Shown here in pieces: positions 1 to 34,991 of a DNA stretch of 34,991 nt. The stretch spans positions 1 through 34,991 of IMG/VR virus record IMGVR_UViG_3300042922_000685; one strand, given 5' to 3'. The DNA comes from a virus (lineage: Duplodnaviria; Caudoviricetes). The notes beneath the pieces were generated by a model. The model was not told where the DNA came from. It did not search any database and was given only the letters and a program-made list of their open reading frames with translations. The number at the start of each line of letters is the position of its first letter. The first letter of the stretch is position 1. Both the position numbers and the translations under genes were made by a program.

Positions 1-127
1 ATTTTCTTCCAAAAGCGAATTAACTGTATTGATTTCTCCCTTGGTTGCATAGGTAGTTGTGTCAGCAGTTGCTATTACATTCTCTAAATCTTCTTTAGCT
101 TCTATTCCATCTTGAATAGTTTCATTC
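1..127 (+). repeat. Terminal direct repeat copy 1 (assembly overlap of a circular contig)
   Basis: Identical to 34865-34991; 127 is a common assembler k-mer size. Confidence 0.95.
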
Positions 128-531
128 AACTCTTCGGTTAATGTTATTACATTAGATGATGGAATTGTATCATCTATTACAGAGCCTTGAATTATGCAAT
201 CAATAACAAAGTTTGATATTATATTACCATCTTTAACTATTAATAATTCAAGATTGCCTTTTCCATATGCTCTTAAGCAATCATCAACTAAAGTTACCGA
301 TACTTTTCCTGAACTTAAAAGAGAAGTATCAAATCCGCTTGTTTGAACTACTAATGTTTTATCACCTTTTATAAAATTTAAAATAAAAGAGTTTCCACTT
401 AGATTAGCAGAAACTCCGTTATTGCTTATTATAAAATTTAATTTAGTGTTGTCATATTGCTTTAAATTTAAAGGAATGTAATTTTGATTATATAGGTCCA
501 AATGAATATCTATATTTCTTACTGAATCCAA
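1..531 (-). CDS. N-terminal part of tail receptor-binding protein (BppU/upper-baseplate-like anchor plus coiled linker), continuing across the junction into 33713-34864; about 560 aa in total
   Basis: Not in the ORF track. SD AGGAGG then TTG at 529-531; open frame MDSVRNIDIHLDLYNQNYIPLNLKQYDNTKLNFII...TVNSLLEEN, in frame with the 33713..34876 ORF; KQYD motif and position after Tal fit a BppU-like domain. Confidence 0.85.
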   Translation of the reverse strand, partial: MDSVRNIDIHLDLYNQNYIPLNLKQYDNTKLNFIISNNGVSANLSGNSFILNFIKGDKTLVVQTSGFDTSLLSSGKVSVTLVDDCLRAYGKGNLELLIVKDGNIISNFVIDCIIQGSVIDDTIPSSNVITLTEELNETIQDGIEAKEDLENVIATADTTTYATKGEINTVNSLLEEN

Positions 532-14776: not shown

Positions 14777-15382
14777 TCACCTTACAAGATCACTTAGTGA
14801 CTTGCTATATTGGTGATACTTTTCTTTATCTATTCCTATATATAATTTTGTTTCTTCTACTGAAGAATGTCCTAATAATTCTTTAACTACAACTATATCT
14901 TTATCGTTAGTATTATAAATTCTATATGCATAAGTCTTTCTCATGCTATGAGCGGTTATGTCTTGCAAGCCAAAATATTCTCCAGCATCTTTTAATATAT
15001 TGCTTACTGCTTGGACTCCTATATGCTTATTCATACCTTTTCTTGATTGGAATATATATTCATAATCTTTTTTATCTTTTATATATTCCTTTAGTATTTT
15101 AGCTAACTTAGGAATTATTTCGACTGTCCTTGGTTTACGATTTTTTTCTCTTATGTTCTTAGAGTTTTTCTTCTTGCCTTCAAGTATTTCAAACTCTCCC
15201 CTTTTAAGGGCATCTTTAATATCTCGTGTTTTTAATTTAACTAAGTCACCTGCTCTATAGCCTGTAGTTATTCCTAACACAAAAAGCACATAATTTCTTT
15301 CACTTTTATATTTTAAATAATCTTGAATATCTAAAACTAATTCTGTGCTTTTTATAGGTTTAGCAGGTCTTTTTCTGCTCAT
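14777..15382 (-). CDS. Tyrosine recombinase, catalytic domain only
   Basis: TTGYRAGD (R), HSMRKT (HxxR), LLGH, TKLY (Y); 201 aa with no N-terminal binding domain. Confidence 0.92.
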   Translation of the reverse strand: MSRKRPAKPIKSTELVLDIQDYLKYKSERNYVLFVLGITTGYRAGDLVKLKTRDIKDALKRGEFEILEGKKKNSKNIREKNRKPRTVEIIPKLAKILKEYIKDKKDYEYIFQSRKGMNKHIGVQAVSNILKDAGEYFGLQDITAHSMRKTYAYRIYNTNDKDIVVVKELLGHSSVEETKLYIGIDKEKYHQYSKSLSDLVR

Positions 15383-16426: not shown

Positions 16427-16669
16427 TTACCCCTCCATATGTTTACCCCATACATATCCTTCTCGTTTTTCTATTTCACCTTTCAAATCTAAATCCATTA
16501 ATAAAAGCATTACTTCCATGCAACTTCTTTTAAATATCTTAGACATTTCTTTTATTCCTGCTCCACATTCCCATAAATCTTTAGCTTTATCTATTTGAGA
16601 TGGATACCAACAAAAGTCAGTATCCAATAGAATAGTTACTAATTTTTCAGTATTCTTTTTGCCCTTCAT
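16427..16669 (-). CDS. Small HTH-like hypothetical protein
   Basis: W..GAGIKEMSKIFKRS..EV pattern. Confidence 0.6.
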   Translation of the reverse strand: MKGKKNTEKLVTILLDTDFCWYPSQIDKAKDLWECGAGIKEMSKIFKRSCMEVMLLLMDLDLKGEIEKREGYVWGKHMEG

Positions 16670-17784
16670 TACTTTTCAATGTAGTTGATTATATTTTTAA
16701 GAACCATGTTTATTGTTCCATCACCATTTCTAACAACTTCAAACTTACTTTTATCATTATAAGTTTCATTGTCTAGGTATAAATCTAAGTTTCTATCAAT
16801 GTTTAATCTTAGTCTTTTAGTCTTTTTCTCAACATACTTTTTATCAACATAAACTTCTTCATTAATACCTTTGCTTATTATAAAATCATCAAATACTTTT
16901 TTAGCTTCAGGCTCATTTTCAAATAACTTATCTGAGAGCTTGGATATATTTATTTTTTCTTCATTTAACAATTCATTTCTTATTGTAGATCTTACAAATT
17001 CAGCTTTATCAGCATCATTATTTATAAATGCTCTTGTAAAGTGTTCTGAACAGTCAATTAACCTTTTAGTTGAATCCCTACTGTTTTCTATTAAAGTGCA
17101 ATATAGAAAGTTTTTAGTAAAATAATTCAATCCATAATCTTCATCATTAGTTTTTTTATTTATTTTATCTATTACCATCAAATTAAACTGCTGATTCATT
17201 GATATAGGTTTAATAAATGCTGCTTTATCAATTTTACAATTTGAATGAGGTAATCCTAATGGTTGCTTAACTAAATTAATAGCTAGATTATTTTCAATAA
17301 AATCCACTTTATGAGTATAGTTGCTTATATAATCTAGTTTTAGCATTCCAATCATAGGACCTTGATCTGTTGATAGAGATACAACTATTAAGTCGCATGA
17401 TGGAATGTTCCCTTGGCTTTTCATTATTGCAAAAAGTTGTTTACTAATTTCTTTTGATATTTCAATTAAATTTCTATTAGATCCATTTAAGTAATCCTGA
17501 GATACTTCTCTTACAAGGTTTCTTTCCTCATTGAATAATGCATACTTTAAATTTTCATCATTAAAAGCTCTTTCTATGTGTTTATAAATAAACTTATAAA
17601 CCTCATCCCCTAAATCTAACTTATATTCATTTAATACTGGTTCATCAGCGTTGTTATCTAATATATGGACTATTGCTTCAATGATATTTATGTCTTGTGG
17701 TATGCAACTTGTATCTATAGCTATGCTTAATTCTTGATATTCCCATTCTCCAGCTTTTTTCATTTTAGATTCATGTATATCCAT
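16669..17784 (-). CDS. Nucleoid-associated protein (YejK/NdpA, NA37 family)
   Basis: AIVHILDNNADEPVLNE, GNIPSCDLIVV, GMLKLDY, YFTKNFL, NGDGTINMVLKNI. Confidence 0.85.
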   Translation of the reverse strand: MDIHESKMKKAGEWEYQELSIAIDTSCIPQDINIIEAIVHILDNNADEPVLNEYKLDLGDEVYKFIYKHIERAFNDENLKYALFNEERNLVREVSQDYLNGSNRNLIEISKEISKQLFAIMKSQGNIPSCDLIVVSLSTDQGPMIGMLKLDYISNYTHKVDFIENNLAINLVKQPLGLPHSNCKIDKAAFIKPISMNQQFNLMVIDKINKKTNDEDYGLNYFTKNFLYCTLIENSRDSTKRLIDCSEHFTRAFINNDADKAEFVRSTIRNELLNEEKINISKLSDKLFENEPEAKKVFDDFIISKGINEEVYVDKKYVEKKTKRLRLNIDRNLDLYLDNETYNDKSKFEVVRNGDGTINMVLKNIINYIEK

Positions 17785-18781: not shown

Positions 18782-18839
18782 AAATAATCTCCTTATTAAA
18801 TTTTGCTGTTTTACTTCTTAATATTTTTGTATTGCGAAC

Positions 18840-19991
18840 CTAGATTATTAAATTCCAATCATCTTCTCTTACCTGGAACGCATCTCCGCATTGAATTATG
18901 TCTGGGTAATTACTCATTGCTACTTGCATTGCGTATTTATCTATTTCATAAGCATAGTATTTTACATTCTTATATCCTAGCTTGTCTAAGCAATATCTGC
19001 CTGTACCTATACCATCATACATACTCAATACAACTATTTCTTCATCTAGTGGTATATTCATGTGTTTTAGAATGTGTATTATAACCTCAGCTGTCCATCC
19101 ATTACCTAATCCTTTATATCCTTGTGAAGCAGATACTACTCTCATATAATCATCTGGCATAGTCTGTAATCTGCAACATTCTGTTACTGTAAGCTTACGG
19201 ATCATATAATAACCATCAACTAGCTTTATAGGATATTGTTTATCTTTTATAGTTATTAACCCATCTTCGACTTCATATATAGGATATCTTTTATCATCTT
19301 TACCTACAGGGCAAGCATATAATCCTGTCTTAGCTCCAACTCCACCACCTTGACCACATATTGTTGTAGCTTTCCCATTAGGAGAATAAACTCTATATTG
19401 TTTACTATCATGTTTTTCATTTTTCGCTTCATTTTCAATAATACCTATCCTTATTGGTTCTGCTATGACATTGTATGGAACCCCTTTATGAATATTGGCT
19501 GTAATACATAATGCCTTGTCTGCTTCTCCAGGTTTCTGACAGTAGCTCCATCTATCGCTATATTTGCCTTTTGTATCTCTGACCATGTAGTCCATTTCTT
19601 TCTCAGATAATGTTTTAATATTAGCAAAAGAATATGCTTGTTCATTTGTAGATGTTTCTAAAATATCTCTTAGCAATATTCCTCTATCTTCTGGCTGAAT
19701 AACATCAGGTATATTGTGAGCATAGAACCTTTGTCTATTCTGAGCACTTACTAATGAACTATTTATATATTGCAAAGGTACACCTAGTTCTAAACTAATT
19801 TGATCCTTTATTGGTTGTGCTGCTGATTTGTTATTTTCATATAAGAAGAAATCAGGTTCAAACTTTTCTTTAGCTATTAAATAATTTTCAAACAGTTCCC
19901 ATCCTATTCCTTCTGCTGCTATTTCTCTATCTTTTTTCTGTGCTATAGACCAACGTGTACATGGACTACCACCTATTAATATCTTTTTCAT
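18840..19991 (-). CDS. DNA (cytosine-5) methyltransferase, circularly permuted (motifs IV-VIII, TRD, IX-X, then I-III)
   Basis: GGSPC at residues 7-11, YENN, AQNRQR, RKLT..ECCRLQ, GLGNG, then VLSMYDGIG, YEID and GD at the C-terminus. Confidence 0.9.
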   Translation of the reverse strand: MKKILIGGSPCTRWSIAQKKDREIAAEGIGWELFENYLIAKEKFEPDFFLYENNKSAAQPIKDQISLELGVPLQYINSSLVSAQNRQRFYAHNIPDVIQPEDRGILLRDILETSTNEQAYSFANIKTLSEKEMDYMVRDTKGKYSDRWSYCQKPGEADKALCITANIHKGVPYNVIAEPIRIGIIENEAKNEKHDSKQYRVYSPNGKATTICGQGGGVGAKTGLYACPVGKDDKRYPIYEVEDGLITIKDKQYPIKLVDGYYMIRKLTVTECCRLQTMPDDYMRVVSASQGYKGLGNGWTAEVIIHILKHMNIPLDEEIVVLSMYDGIGTGRYCLDKLGYKNVKYYAYEIDKYAMQVAMSNYPDIIQCGDAFQVREDDWNLII

Positions 19992-20001
19992 TTATACATT
20001 C

Positions 20002-20028
20002 CCTCCACGTCTGGAGGTACCGCGGTAC
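20002..20028 (-). promoter_or_regulatory. SD-sequestering hairpin and 12-bp palindrome upstream of the MTase
   Basis: CCTCCA-N4-TGGAGG (20002-20017) and GTACCGCGGTAC (20017-20028). Confidence 0.55.
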
Positions 20029-20078
20029 ATTTTATCTAGAATTACTCCGATTTATTTTTAATTCACATTAATTTCACT

Positions 20079-21221
20079 TTACGCAGTTTTCTTTGCTGCT
20101 AAATAATCACACCATTTAATAAAGCCCTTAATTATTGGTCTTACATTATTGCTTGATGCCCATCCTGCAAATCCTATAAATCCATTAGAATTAAAACTTA
20201 TGCATTCTCTTTTGCTAAAATAATGAGCATCTACATACATATAAGCATGTATGATTTTTTTATTGCTTTTACATTTAGTTTTTATTTTAGGATTTATCTT
20301 CATAGTTTCTAAACAAGATCCTTTGCTTATTTCTTTATCTAAAAATTCATGTAACTTCTCAATGTCACATCTTTTAATATCATTGTATGAAAGTCCTTTC
20401 TTTGAGAAATAACCTCTAGCTGCTATTGTACTTGTTTCAAATGCATCTTTTTTATTTCTTTGAATTCTTCTTTCTTTAAAATCATTTTCAGTAGCATCAA
20501 ATAATAAGAAGGATGCTTCATTTGTATATTCTGTATCGTTTAATATTACCCACCACATATTATTTATATTATGGTATACCTTTCCCCTCACAAGCCTTCC
20601 CCTACGATCTCTAAAATATTTAACTTGACCATTGTATATAGTTTTCTTATCTCTATCAGTATTGTTGCAGCTTGATTCATCTGTTGTTCCATCTAAATCT
20701 TTTAACTTAAAATTCATGTCTTTTTGTGGTTTATGCCAACTCTTAACTAAATGCGCTTTAACACTATCTTCAGAATATTTTGTTTCAACTTCTGAGTTGT
20801 TTTCTATTCCCAACTCTTCTAAAAACTCTCCCATCTTTTTTGTTTCAATTATCCAATTCAACCTAACCAAATAAGGTGCTTTTCGAAATTTATTAGAGTC
20901 ATACTCTCCACCATTTACATTTTCAATATTTATATTTTGAAAAAAATCTATGCTAAATCCTCTAGGATATCTATGTGCCTTAAACTCTAAATCTCCTTTT
21001 CTTCCACGCCAATGGTCTTTATTTATGGCTTTATAATGCTCCTGAATTCTTGGATCTCTACCTATGCTAAAACCCCTTTGTTTCATAAAATTAAAGAGTC
21101 TGTGCATTATTGAATAATGTGACCATTTATATCTATCAGGCCATCCATGTTGTTCATCAGTATCATTTACAAAGCTTAAACTAAAATGATTTTTACTTAT
21201 ACTAAAAGAGTAACCATTCAT
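20079..21221 (-). CDS. Hypothetical protein (380 aa)
   Basis: Long ORF with GGAGG SD; no family recognised. Confidence 0.8.
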   Translation of the reverse strand: MNGYSFSISKNHFSLSFVNDTDEQHGWPDRYKWSHYSIMHRLFNFMKQRGFSIGRDPRIQEHYKAINKDHWRGRKGDLEFKAHRYPRGFSIDFFQNINIENVNGGEYDSNKFRKAPYLVRLNWIIETKKMGEFLEELGIENNSEVETKYSEDSVKAHLVKSWHKPQKDMNFKLKDLDGTTDESSCNNTDRDKKTIYNGQVKYFRDRRGRLVRGKVYHNINNMWWVILNDTEYTNEASFLLFDATENDFKERRIQRNKKDAFETSTIAARGYFSKKGLSYNDIKRCDIEKLHEFLDKEISKGSCLETMKINPKIKTKCKSNKKIIHAYMYVDAHYFSKRECISFNSNGFIGFAGWASSNNVRPIIKGFIKWCDYLAAKKTA

Positions 21222-21233
21222 TTTAAATCCTCC

Positions 21234-21416
21234 CTATTTGCAATCTTTGCATATTGCATAATTTTTTGTAACAAATATTGATTTTCTCTTATCTTTACTG
21301 TTGTATTTTCTTCTAGATAACTTATAATAACTTTGTCCAGCTTTAATAACCTTGTCGCATAAATAGCATCTAACATCCTTTTTACTTGTAGTTAAACTAT
21401 ACTGAGACTCTGCCAT
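21234..21416 (-). CDS. Small zinc-finger protein
   Basis: CYLC...ICKDC. Confidence 0.65.
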   Translation of the reverse strand: MAESQYSLTTSKKDVRCYLCDKVIKAGQSYYKLSRRKYNSKDKRKSIFVTKNYAICKDCK

Positions 21417-32160: not shown

Positions 32161-32181
32161 AAGGACTTATATAAAGTCCTT
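32161..32181 (-). terminator. Terminator after the XerD-like recombinase
   Basis: AAGGACTT-ATATA-AAGTCCTT plus T-run on the minus strand. Confidence 0.65.
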
Positions 32182-33202
32182 AACTAGTTTTATTATATTC
32201 ATGTTTTATATTATTTTCTGAGAGAGCAGCGTATATTTGAGTTGTTGAAGGGTTAGTATGTCCTAATAACATTTGCAAGGCTGTTATATTCATTCCTGAG
32301 TTTAGTCTATGTGTAGCAAAACTATGTCTCAGTAAATGAGGGAACACACTCTTTTCTATTCCTGCTCTTAATGCAACATTAGACACCTCCTTTTCAATGC
32401 TTCTTTGTCCTAGCCTTGCATATGGTCTTTTACTTGTTACAAATAAAGGTTTATTTTCATCTTTTCTTGTTTTCAAATAATCAATTATTAGTAACTTAGC
32501 CTTTACATTAAAATAAACCTTTCTTTCTTTATTGCCTTTTCCTATAACATTAACACTTAACTCATTCCAATTGATTGAATTTTTATCAACTCCAGTTACT
32601 TCACTTACCCTACAGCCTGTACTATATATAAATTCAATAAGAGCCTTCTCACGTGAACTTATACAAGCTTGTTTAACCTTTTCCATCTCTTCTAAAGTTA
32701 AAGCCTTACGCAAGCGTTTAGGTATCTTAGGACCTTTAATTTTTGCCATAGGATTTTTTAAAAGGTATTCTTCTTCAACAAGCCATTTAAAGAATCCCTT
32801 TAGTGTATATATAAATGTACTCATTGAAGTTTCTCTTTTATCCTTAGAAGATAAAGCTATATACATCCTCAAATCATTCGTTGTTATTGTACTTGTAGGT
32901 TTATTAAAAAATCCATTTAATTTTTGAAGTTGAACTTTATAATTATATAAAGTTTTTGCACTGAGTCCTTCTAATCTTCTAACTGCAAGATACATTTTTA
33001 TTCTATCTGACATATCAGAAGATACTAATGATGTTTCTCTTGTTAAAACATCATAATTATAAAGCACCTTTTCAACTATAGCTTTAACTTTTAGTTGTAA
33101 GCTAAGATCTTTTTCTAAATAATCAAATTCAGAAGATAATTTTCCTATTAGTTTAATAACTACTTCATCATTACAATTTGTCCTATGCTCATATTCATAC
33201 AT
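32180..33202 (-). CDS. XerC/D-like tyrosine recombinase with SAM-like N-terminal domain
   Basis: EGLSAKTLYNY, STGCRVSE, GKGNKER, VFPHLLRHSFAT, LLGH, TTQIY. Confidence 0.95.
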   Translation of the reverse strand: MYEYEHRTNCNDEVVIKLIGKLSSEFDYLEKDLSLQLKVKAIVEKVLYNYDVLTRETSLVSSDMSDRIKMYLAVRRLEGLSAKTLYNYKVQLQKLNGFFNKPTSTITTNDLRMYIALSSKDKRETSMSTFIYTLKGFFKWLVEEEYLLKNPMAKIKGPKIPKRLRKALTLEEMEKVKQACISSREKALIEFIYSTGCRVSEVTGVDKNSINWNELSVNVIGKGNKERKVYFNVKAKLLIIDYLKTRKDENKPLFVTSKRPYARLGQRSIEKEVSNVALRAGIEKSVFPHLLRHSFATHRLNSGMNITALQMLLGHTNPSTTQIYAALSENNIKHEYNKTS

Positions 33203-33217
33203 AATTCATCCCCCTAG

Positions 33218-33318
33218 TTTACACAAAGGAATAACTATGTTAATATCTAATTACACCTTTGTGTGTATGTTAGAGAGTTCTGTTTGCTTTGGTCGGCGTA
33301 GAACTCTCTTTCCTTTTT
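33218..33318 (+). ncRNA. Candidate antisense sRNA to the recombinase leader
   Basis: TTTACA-N17-TAATAT promoter (33218-33246); hairpin AGAGAGTTCT-N18-AGAACTCTCT (33272-33309) plus T-tail. Confidence 0.5.
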
Positions 33319-33320
33319 GG

Positions 33321-33572
33321 TTATTTATAGCTCTTAATTATCTCTTCTAATGTTCTATTAACTTTTTCTAAATCATCAGTTCCAATAGGGAAAGATGGAC
33401 TTCTTCTGCCAGAAACTATTCCATTGTATTCCATCTGTACTTTCGCTACAGAAGGGAATGTTCCATCCCAATCTTCCTTACCGATTGAAACTTTATACTT
33501 AGTATTTGGAGGATGTGGAGGGCAACTTGCATTTACATACTTAGTTACCTCCGGATAAAATATCTTGGCCAT
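33321..33572 (-). CDS. Hypothetical protein (moron-like)
   Basis: 83 aa, GAGGTG SD, upstream extended -10 TGGTATACT. Confidence 0.75.
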   Translation of the reverse strand: MAKIFYPEVTKYVNASCPPHPPNTKYKVSIGKEDWDGTFPSVAKVQMEYNGIVSGRRSPSFPIGTDDLEKVNRTLEEIIKSYK

Positions 33573-33681
33573 ATCATCACCTCTTTTCTTTAGCTTACCT
33601 ATAGTATACCAAGGTGTCCTAAAGGATTATACAGGTATGTTATGGTAAGAAAAATAGAGTATTTCTACTCTCTTAATTTAT

Positions 33682-33711
33682 AGTTAGTTCGCATTAATTT
33701 TCAATTGAGTA
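33682..33711 (-). other. Candidate recombination site, distal end of the RBP module
   Basis: Minus strand TACTCAAT-TGAAAATT-AATGCGAA-CTAACT, starting 1 nt after the RBP stop codon. Confidence 0.6.
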
Positions 33712-33712
33712 C

Positions 33713-34990
33713 TTAAACTATATTACCATTTGTATCTCTCCAATTACTTCCTGTGTTAATAATAAGTTTTTGAATCGCTCCATCATAACATAAACAACCT
33801 TTTACATTAAAAGTTGGTCTACCGCCTATTATAATTCCAGCAACCCATTGCCATTCACCCCATGAGGTGCTACTATCTAACCATCTTCTTCTTATACTGT
33901 AGTTAGAAAATTTTTCTGATACTACAAGCTCCTGATAGGATTGATTTGCTACAGCACTATGATAACTTTGTAAATGTCCACCTTTATTTAAATATGTGTC
34001 AGCACTAGCAGTTATTTCACAATAGGTTATTTTGCCTACTTGATAAGTAGATATTGGAGCATCAATATTAGTCAATGTATTGTCTACTACAACCATTTGT
34101 TGTTTAATAATATCACTTGATTTTATTTTTGCGCTTTTAGAAATAAACAAATAATCATCAGACAATGTATCACCAGCACTTATAATATTGCCAACTCTTT
34201 TTATGCCTTCTTCAAAAGTATATATTGGAATTCCTAATGATTGAATATAATCAATCATAGGTGCATATAAATCTGTGTTTGTTGCAAATCCACAATGGGT
34301 CAGAATGACAAGTATATTTTTTCTGTTGAAGCATTTGTCTATGAGTTCTTGTATTTCTGGTAAATCCGCACCATCAATCCCAACTCTTTCAACCCTCATT
34401 GAATCAAATGGTAGATAATTTGTTGTTTCAGTTGCATCTATTCCATAGTCATAATATTTTCTTGTTAATGCTTTTATATTTTTTCTTTTTGTATCATCCA
34501 TACCACTTTCATATAGTCCAAATGGGTATACTATTGCCTTATCATTGAATCCATTTTCTCTTACAAATTGTAAACTTTCACTACATTGTAATTCCCAATC
34601 GGCATCACTTATATTGTATAAATGTGGATGTGACTTCGAGTGCGAAAGAATATCGTAACCCGAATCCCTTAGATTTTTTAATTGTTCTAACGTCATGTAT
34701 CCACTCGTCCCTACAAAGTCTTTTACTGCACCAAGGCTTATTTTTATTCCTTTAGCATCACAAACTGGAACCCATTTAGTTAAAACGTTGCTAGTTATAT
34801 CATCATCTATTATGAATATCATAGGTTGATTGGCACTATTATATTTTGGTTTTAATTCCTTCTCATTTTCTTCCAAAAGCGAATTAACTGTATTGATTTC
34901 TCCCTTGGTTGCATAGGTAGTTGTGTCAGCAGTTGCTATTACATTCTCTAAATCTTCTTTAGCTTCTATTCCATCTTGAATAGTTTCATT
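33713..34990 (-). CDS. C-terminal part of the RBP: CE4/NodB polysaccharide deacetylase domain, tail-knob-like domain and tailspike-type terminal motif
   Basis: IFIIDDD, SHSKSHPHL, IVYPFG, VILTH (CE4 motifs); RRRW..SWGEW; GRP...G..YD.....I...G..WRD.NG..V; in frame with 1-531. Confidence 0.88.
   Translation of the reverse strand, partial: NETIQDGIEAKEDLENVIATADTTTYATKGEINTVNSLLEENEKELKPKYNSANQPMIFIIDDDITSNVLTKWVPVCDAKGIKISLGAVKDFVGTSGYMTLEQLKNLRDSGYDILSHSKSHPHLYNISDADWELQCSESLQFVRENGFNDKAIVYPFGLYESGMDDTKRKNIKALTRKYYDYGIDATETTNYLPFDSMRVERVGIDGADLPEIQELIDKCFNRKNILVILTHCGFATNTDLYAPMIDYIQSLGIPIYTFEEGIKRVGNIISAGDTLSDDYLFISKSAKIKSSDIIKQQMVVVDNTLTNIDAPISTYQVGKITYCEITASADTYLNKGGHLQSYHSAVANQSYQELVVSEKFSNYSIRRRWLDSSTSWGEWQWVAGIIIGGRPTFNVKGCLCYDGAIQKLIINTGSNWRDTNGNIV
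34860..34889 (-). other. Candidate recombination site at the anchor/module junction inside the RBP gene
   Basis: Minus strand AGTTAA-TTCGCTTT-TGGAAGAA-AATGAGAA (encodes VNSLLEENE); outer arm is a 10/11 inverted match to 33682-33692. Confidence 0.6.
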
Positions 34991-34991
34991 C
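34865..34991 (+). repeat. Terminal direct repeat copy 2 (assembly overlap)
   Basis: Identical to 1-127. Confidence 0.95.

What the first reader, a model, noticed from the sequence alone, without database searches (positions are those of the whole stretch)
32180..34889. Candidate recombinase-driven, in-frame receptor-binding cassette (integron-like RBP module swapping)
Seen: the RBP is a BppU-like anchor fused to a deacetylase/knob module. At the fusion point the minus strand reads agttaa TTCGCTTT TGGAAGAA AATGAGAA. One base after the stop codon it reads TACTCAAT TGAAAATT AATGCGAA ctaact, in the same orientation and register. Each site alone is a poor palindrome. The two outer arms pair well (AGTTAATTCGC vs GCGAACTAACT, 10/11), and the two inner arms also pair (TACTCA vs TGAGAA). 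This is the pattern expected for attL/attR hybrids. Excision would rebuild a symmetric site in which the anchor frame stops at once (...AAT GCG AAC TAA). An intact XerD-like recombinase lies about 500 bp downstream. Known: tyrosine recombinases act on inverted arms around a 6-8 bp core, and phage tail-fibre switching is classically by inversion. Inference: this phage exchanges a promoterless, start-less host-range module by excision and integration instead. The two cores differ, so the enzyme would need to tolerate heterology, as integron and Tn916 integrases do.
Basis: partly seen in the sequence, partly recalled or inferred. Interest (0 to 1): 0.9.

Follow-up and report, generated by a model that had tools for sequence, protein, structure and literature searches.

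The report
Address-matched host-range module swapping in phage
The likely host-recognising end of this phage's tail protein lies between two short mirror-image DNA sites where related phages carry unrelated ends joined in frame, and because each site has its own six-base centre, a neighbouring phage recombinase likely swaps these ends between phages slot for slot rather than cutting them out, which would be a built-in way to change host range.

Summary
Both sites belong to a 24-bp family (TTCGYAAT-N8-ATTRCGAA) found in Clostridium-type phages, in frame at the anchor/module junction of tail-fibre genes, after their stop codons, and between early accessory genes. Relatives and metagenome contigs change module or anchor at these sites. 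In one phage pair, four replaced blocks are each bounded by two sites. Crossovers map to the central 6 bp. In 47 of 49 site pairs sharing one flank, that centre matches at 5 or 6 of 6 (background 20%). Sites A and B of one phage match that well in only 2 of 18 cases (window 3/6), and no excision product was seen. So heterology-tolerant, integron-like excision is unlikely. Double crossover between phages at matching centres fits better: a natural cassette exchange, like pdif modules. The intact 340-aa XerA-like recombinase is the best candidate enzyme but is untested, and three site-bearing records lack it. Ten literature searches found no description. This scan noted similar 'addressed' sites earlier on other DNA.

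The parts
1..531 (-). RBP/tail-fibre anchor (BppU N-terminal domain plus linker); continues across the circular junction (1-127 = 34865-34991)
34860..34883 (-). Site A, in frame (codons S-L-L-E-E-N-E): left arm TTCGCTTT, spacer T-GGAAGA-A (6-bp centre 34874-34869), right arm AATGAGAA; TTAA precedes the left arm
33713..34867 (-). Exchangeable C-terminal module (polysaccharide deacetylase plus unassigned C-terminal part), read in frame from the anchor
33688..33711 (-). Site B, one base after the stop: left arm TACTCAAT, spacer T-GAAAAT-T (centre 33702-33697), right arm AATGCGAA followed by CTAA
33321..33572 (-). 83-aa ORF of unknown function between site B and the recombinase; no Pfam, PHROG or NCBIfam hit
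32180..33202 (-). 340-aa XerA-like tyrosine recombinase with intact RKHRHY residues and an extra helical N-terminal part (about residues 11-47); candidate enzyme
21237..21260 (-). Early-region site of the same family (centre TGCAAA), before a 380-aa ORF
20062..20085 (-). Early-region site (centre TGAAAT) overlapping the 380-aa ORF stop, before the cytosine methyltransferase gene
18815..18838 (-). Early-region site (centre CAAAAA) directly after the methyltransferase stop

Best explanation
The two sites mark where related phages carry different C-terminal tail modules on the same anchor, or the same module on different anchors, and they likely work as address-matched crossover points: a tyrosine recombinase, likely the adjacent 340-aa XerA-like enzyme, would recombine site A with the A site of a second phage or prophage in the same cell and site B with its B site, swapping the module in frame. 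Shown: exchange points fall in the sites; the crossover window is the central 6 bp; partner centres match; A and B centres differ. Inferred: symmetric arms bound by one enzyme, a cointegrate formed at one address and resolved at the other, protection of the essential module from deletion because A and B do not match, and a change of host range. Early-region sites with repeated centres would also allow gain, loss and reordering of accessory genes. Odds by step: sites are the exchange points 0.93; site-specific recombination needing matched centres 0.8; this enzyme 0.65.
For: Nine anchor homologs carry unrelated C-termini (GH43/32, pectate-lyase-like, GH113/GH5, M14 peptidase, none assigned), and similarity ends at NSxLEE. 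L034 vs L035: identity stops after core A and resumes at core B. Of 105 A-site pairs, 13 shared only one side; change points lay at 2-29 relative to the 24-bp site, 10 of 13 inside it. Anchors and modules combine freely: G006/G019/G020 and G032/G033/L039 share anchors with different modules; G009/G018/G025 share a module on different anchors. Contigs in three runs break at 34867/34866 (same anchor, other module), 34884 (same module, other anchor) and 33702 (same downstream gene, other module). G001 vs G002: 4 replaced blocks among 37 aligned pieces are bounded on both sides by sites with matching centres. Alignment ends fall in sites in 31 of 589 cases against 2.5 expected; gene ends with a site are breakpoints in 19 of 37 cases against 209 of 974 without. 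One-flank pairs match at 5-6/6 in 47 of 49 against 2062 of 10256 background pairs, and identity switches between spacer positions 2 and 7. The Leu codon in site A is TTG in 18 of 19 against 11% genome use. Phages picked only by the recombinase (TPELB_ph1, phiCp-D, C. magnum L233, G030) have the sites. Eight isolate phages without a close homolog have 0-1 stop-proximal hits. The same spacer rule is shown experimentally for pdif sites (PMC13141974).
Against: No recombination was observed and the enzyme is untested. G001 and G002 have 3-5 stop-proximal sites and clean swaps but no PF00589 gene, and G032 has site A but no homolog; these need an enzyme supplied in trans. Enzyme-positive G026, L231, L234 and L236 show no stop-proximal site. 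558 of 589 alignment ends lie outside sites, so other recombination dominates genome-wide. The pairs are not independent: genomes are related and some sites are reused. The first PWM was trained on loci of the same prophages it was then run on, and several A sites were found with it or with a pattern fixing TCG. Core A is also protein-coding. A and B match at 5/6 in 2 of 18 phages. One contig's B site has a degenerate left arm, and the phiCp-D and G033 A sites rank only 16th and 14th in their genes. The role as receptor-binding protein and the effect on host range are inferred from position and domains.
Confidence: 0.65

Rival explanations
1. Same address-matched sites, but another enzyme acts: host XerC/XerD-type proteins, a homolog on a co-resident prophage, or the window's small 201-aa integrase-family protein (14777-15382).
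For: G001, G002 and G032 carry sites without the enzyme. The TTCGYA of the arm lies at the same distance from the 6-bp centre as in XerC arms of pdif sites (Table 1 of PMC13141974). The window encodes three tyrosine-recombinase-family proteins.
Against: The inner arm bases are AAT-N/N-ATT rather than the ATAA/TTAT of pdif sites, and the two arms are alike rather than distinct C and D arms. The small protein is missing from site-bearing G013, G018, G025, G027, G030 and phiCp-D (G030 and phiCp-D were fetched in part). The 340-aa gene follows the RBP B site within about 2 kb in four phages. A homolog in trans is still the same system.
Confidence: 0.15
2. The sites are operators of a dimeric regulator, or conserved linkers, and exchange occurs by short-homology recombination (RecT/Sak-type) at these repeats.
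For: Many early sites sit between a stop codon and a ribosome-binding site. Recombinase-fold phage regulators exist (SroF and MrpR appear; their repressor role is partly recalled). Most genome-wide breakpoints are outside sites.
Against: An operator does not explain why partner centres match slot by slot (47 of 49), why the switch falls within 6 bp, or why non-homologous anchors join the same module with only the site in common. The catalytic residues are invariant in 52 sequences.
Confidence: 0.1
3. One reading: attL/attR hybrids, with the module excised as a 1.17-kb circle and re-integrated by a heterology-tolerant enzyme, as in integrons or Tn916.
For: Outer arms resemble each other more than other arm pairs do (window 12/14; G033 and L039 11/14). 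Same-centre neighbours occur in early regions (35 of 88 consecutive pairs at 5-6/6), so ordinary matched-core excision may happen there. L109 and G030 have A and B at 5/6.
Against: Heterology tolerance would scramble centres between ends, yet 18 of 19 A spacers begin TGG and B centres form a separate class. This test is weaker where an AG-type centre would make a stop codon at A. No A-B joint was seen in three runs of contigs, which drop rare variants. No empty/filled pair was found. The integron-integrase model is far below its cut-off (94 vs 265).
Confidence: 0.07
4. An inversion shufflon like Rin, with the arms read as an inverted pair.
For: Read as inverted repeats, A and B share the outer 10/11 match. 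Rin uses a tyrosine recombinase beside an RBP gene (PMC6109161).
Against: Spacers are directional and lie along transcription: window 4 forward, 0 reverse; most genomes 0-1 reverse. A vs reverse-complement B spacer identity averages 1.5/8. No silent alternative C-termini flank the gene in the 15 loci listed, and no strand-changing joint was seen.
Confidence: 0.03

Closest known systems
pdif sites and dif modules of Acinetobacter Rep_3/OrfX plasmids (PMC13141974; abstract, Introduction and passages read)
   Same: Two arms around a 6-bp spacer. Recombination occurs between identical or 5/6-identical spacers. A single module is replaced with near-identical spacers kept left and right, explained by cointegrate formation and resolution.
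   Different: Here the sites are on phages, all in direct orientation, with two alike arms rather than XerC and XerD arms in alternating C/D order. One site lies in frame inside a structural gene, so a protein domain is swapped. The candidate enzyme is phage-encoded.
Rin shufflon of Bifidobacterium prophages (PMC6109161; passages read)
   Same: A tyrosine recombinase lies beside an RBP gene with one site inside the gene and a second right after its 3' end, giving a constant N-terminus and a variable C-terminus.
   Different: Rin uses identical asymmetric 11-bp repeats and inverts stored alternative C-termini within one genome. Here each genome holds one module, the sites are symmetric with different centres, and the variation comes from other phages.
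Integrons and Tn916/Tn1549-type heterology-tolerant integrases (features recalled; structures listed)
   Same: Tyrosine recombinase; promoterless cargo with the site right after the stop codon; arrays of small genes in early regions.
   Different: Below the integron-integrase cut-off. No attC-like long imperfect hairpin is evident in the 24-32-bp sites, and centres are matched rather than mismatched.
Recombinase-mediated cassette exchange with heterospecific sites (engineered; recalled, search listing only)
   Same: A cassette flanked by two sites with different spacers is replaced by double crossover and is not excised.
   Different: That is a laboratory design; this would be a natural phage version.

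Membership tests
Tyrosine recombinase (Xer-like) | Core-binding and catalytic domains with R-K-H-R-H-Y residues | tested here: met
   model pLDDT 87.5 with top fold hits XerA
Tyrosine recombinase (Xer-like) | Binds and recombines these sites | not testable with these tools
   association only
XerC / XerD orthologs | Score above the curated cut-off | tested here: not met
   XerC 214 vs 335; XerD 208 vs 330; XerA-type 225 vs 220 met
pdif/dif modules | 6-bp spacer that matches between recombining partners | tested here: met
   47 of 49 one-flank pairs at 5-6/6; switch within spacer positions 2-7
pdif/dif modules | Distinct XerC and XerD arms, with alternating inversely oriented sites | tested here: not met
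   alike arms with AAT-N/N-ATT inner bases; sites in direct orientation
pdif/dif modules | Use of host XerC/XerD | not testable with these tools
   search for a host dif-like site was at chance level
Integron | Integron integrase (IntI) family enzyme | tested here: not met
   TIGR02249 94 vs cut-off 265
Integron | Cassettes excised as circles and inserted, leaving empty and filled sites | tested here: inconclusive
   0 empty/filled pairs among 146 sites; no A-B joint in contigs, which drop rare variants
Integron | attC single-strand hairpin sites | not tested
   no attC model was run; the sites are short 24-32-bp palindromes
Rin/Min-type shufflon | Several stored alternative C-termini and inverted identical sites | tested here: not met
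   one module per genome and direct, non-identical sites
Rin/Min-type shufflon | Site inside the RBP gene, site after its end, recombinase adjacent | tested here: met
   window, TPELB_ph1, C. magnum L233; degenerate A site in phiCp-D
BppU-anchored RBP | BppU N-terminal domain with an exchangeable C-terminus | tested here: met

The most novel reading that the evidence does not exclude
A widespread family of Clostridium-type phages encodes its own cassette-exchange machine. One XerA-like recombinase and a small code of 6-bp addresses let phages in the same cell trade receptor-binding domains in frame, across unrelated anchors and tail types, and trade accessory genes slot by slot, while mismatched addresses keep the essential module from being deleted. 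This would be programmed, site-specific mosaicism of host range without inversion, stored alleles or long homology.
Probability: 0.55. Interest if true: 0.93.

Novelty: new variant of a known kind. Interest (0 to 1): 0.84.

Why it matters
Exchange of receptor-binding domains behind a conserved anchor is common in phages and is usually put down to homologous or illegitimate recombination (established knowledge, recalled). Here it maps to a defined site with a readable spacer rule and a named candidate enzyme, so the question of how tail modules move becomes testable with a plasmid assay. It would give a function to a large family of orphan 'XerD-like' phage genes (6478 hits among 7999 scored candidates, many of them distant). 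It would let tail-module boundaries be predicted from DNA, and it would supply a natural recombinase with several orthogonal addresses.

Tried and rejected
Anchor searches in genome and metagenome contigs and in named phages found nothing; only two viral loci came by protein. A window-type A pattern found 0 of 27 prophage records; the looser PWM later found their sites. Of 119 loci from the pattern scan, 41 matches lay in long ORFs; I kept 6 as tail junctions (L039, L069, L070, L078, L109, L139, two of them the same records as G001 and G002) and treated the rest as chance. The single-sequence fold failed (pLDDT 35.5). The host dif-like pattern search was at chance level. The strict site pattern over four chromosomes gave 6, 0, 0 and 1 matches against controls of 1, 6, 1 and 2, which is uninformative. 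The promoter scan of 33150-33760 was near chance (5 vs 2.8). The tail regions of AR1074-1, phiCD6356 and Diva, which share an anchor type with G004, showed no convincing site. G021 was left out of the pair analyses because its orientation is mixed. The contig break inside site A (127-bp overlap) was considered as a sign of a graph branch and not used, since contig 8 of run X1 runs through the site. Inversion was rejected (see rivals). No complex prediction was run.
Full report
1. What is in the window. The record is a complete circular phage with a 127-bp terminal overlap. Its closest named homologs are from Clostridium, so the host is inferred. The tail gene starts at 531 on the minus strand and continues to 33713. 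It has a BppU N-terminal domain and a polysaccharide deacetylase domain, and is followed by an 83-aa ORF, a 340-aa tyrosine recombinase and the lysis genes. Taken alone this is weak, because such a match arose in 182 of 3851 random trials.

2. The module is exchanged at these sites. Nine longer homologs of the anchor carry unrelated C-termini, and similarity ends at NSxLEE. Two related phages, G001 and G002 (loci L034, L035), share the anchor through the spacer of site A, differ over 1.3 and 3.2 kb, and rejoin at the spacer of site B. In G002 both sites are near-perfect palindromes, which gave the consensus TTCGYAAT-N8-ATTRCGAA. Contigs from three soil runs break on the window at 34867 and 34866 (same anchor, other module), at 34884 (same module, other anchor) and at 33702 (same downstream gene, other module). 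Run X1 may be the source of this DNA, so its own contigs are not independent. No contig joins A to B; contigs drop rare variants.

3. The site is a family. In 27 loci around homologs of the recombinase, arm matches were enriched only at an 8-bp spacing: 23 at score 13 or more, against a shuffled mean of 5.6 and 1-11 at other spacings. Many begin at a stop codon and precede a ribosome-binding site. A PWM from 23 such sites plus 6 RBP sites found an in-frame site at the anchor/module junction of tail-fibre genes in 8 of the prophages fetched. It also found three more sites in the window's early region, at 18815, 20062 and 21237. An arm-only model trained without RBP sites ranks site A first in its gene in 16 of 19 cases and site B first in 15 of 18. 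This is partly circular where A was found by the PWM or by a pattern, but not for the window, G001 or G002, where A ranks first in 3 of 3. Anchors and modules combine freely, and P0005 and L069 start the same module on unrelated anchors. In 13 of 105 A-site pairs sharing one side only, change points lay at positions 2-29 of the 24-bp site. Genome-wide, 31 of 589 alignment ends lie in sites against 2.5 expected, and gene ends with a site are breakpoints in 19 of 37 cases against 209 of 974 without. Most breakpoints are therefore elsewhere.

4. The centres act as addresses. Among 146 sites, 60 cross-genome pairs (49 unique) share exactly one flank. In 47 of the 49, the central 6 bp match at 5 or 6 positions, against 2062 of 10256 for all pairs. 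Spacer position 1 follows the left flank and position 8 the right, so the crossover window is positions 2-7. G001 and G002 show four replaced blocks, each with one centre kept on the left and a different one kept on the right. A and B of the same phage match at 5/6 in only 2 of 18 cases; the window has GGAAGA and GAAAAT, 3/6. The pairs come from related genomes and are not independent. Centre A is also coding, although its Leu codon is TTG in 18 of 19 against 11% genome use. In early regions, 35 of 88 neighbouring sites share a centre, so gain and loss are possible there, but no clean empty/filled pair was found. The stop that follows a hypothetical A-B join comes from a TAA beyond the right arm that mirrors the TTA before the left arm, so the full site is probably about 32 bp. 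A likeness to loxP in arm layout is recalled and was not tested.

5. The enzyme. The 340-aa protein passes the XerA-type cut-off and fails those for XerC, XerD and integron integrase. R198, K222, H289, R292, H315 and Y324 are invariant in 52 sequences, and its model (pLDDT 87.5) is closest to XerA. Phages chosen only by this gene have the sites. TPELB_ph1 has site A at residue 86 and a perfect site B at the stop, followed by the gene; the C. magnum prophage has the same layout; phiCp-D has site B and a degenerate A; G030 has five early sites and an RBP site. Eight isolate phages without a close homolog have 0-1 stop-proximal hits. Against this, G001 and G002 have sites but no PF00589 gene, G032 has no homolog, and G026, L231, L234 and L236 have the gene but no stop-proximal site. 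The window's 201-aa integrase-family protein is absent from six site-bearing, enzyme-positive records, which makes it a weaker candidate.

6. Mechanism. Most likely, two phage genomes in one cell recombine at matching A centres and resolve at matching B centres, or at another shared address, which moves the module in frame. Unequal A and B centres would prevent its deletion. The positions of exchange and the matching rule are shown by comparison. Catalysis, the enzyme's identity, the cointegrate and the effect on host range are inferred.

7. Known systems. The logic is that of pdif modules, where crossovers in identical or 5/6 spacers were shown and single modules are replaced with both spacers kept (PMC13141974: abstract, Introduction and passages). 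It is not a member: it has no distinct C and D arms, its sites are in direct orientation, and it is phage-borne. The layout matches the Rin shufflon (PMC6109161: passages), but there are no stored alleles and no inversion. PMC1914069 (passages) supports the general site shape of two arms around 6-8 bp. Integron, Tn916 and RMCE features are recalled. Ten full-text searches listed no paper describing this system. The library lacks most subscription papers, and supplements were not read.

8. Earlier notes of this scan. I had listed exchange between unlike cores as a rival (note) before one search showed notes on 'addressed' 6-bp-centre sites in SPbeta-like and other large phages. I took the address wording and the pdif lead from them and tested the idea here. 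One search showed a note on a tail-fibre site encoding AQLADT, probably the same family but read there as inverted copies, and it gave the Rin lead. These notes are not counted as evidence.

9. Verdict. It is a new variant of a known kind; interest 0.84.

Noticed in passing
window 14777-15382 (-): A third tyrosine-recombinase-family gene (201 aa, catalytic domain only) near the terminase genes; homologs occur in several related prophages.
   Followed up: partly
window 18815-21260 (-): The cytosine methyltransferase gene and a 380-aa unknown gene are each bounded by the same site family; methyltransferase-like genes sit between such sites in G002 and G004 too.
   Followed up: partly
L027 5983-6594 and 7498-8199: The recombinase gene is in two pieces. 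The C-terminal part starts at a site-like sequence whose right arm is the gene's own coding sequence, possibly an off-target crossover.
   Followed up: partly
run X1 contigs on window 34361-34964: The same sample holds a second phage with a related deacetylase module on another anchor, and a contig carrying the G001-type module, so possible exchange partners co-occur.
   Followed up: partly
L109 6003, 8593, 10831: A 116-kb prophage record has A and B centres at 5/6 and a third site with the same centre after a second tail-like gene; here excision should be possible.
   Followed up: no
L034 7290-9452 (G001): The BppU-type gene lies after portal/head-morphogenesis-like genes rather than in a tail block, in a 52-kb record with no tyrosine recombinase.
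   Followed up: no
window 33321-33572 (-): The 83-aa ORF between site B and the recombinase has no family hit; its 5' flank is shared with a contig that carries another module.
   Followed up: no
window 16669-17784 (-): An NA37 nucleoid-associated protein gene; similar genes lie near the recombinase in other prophages.
   Followed up: no
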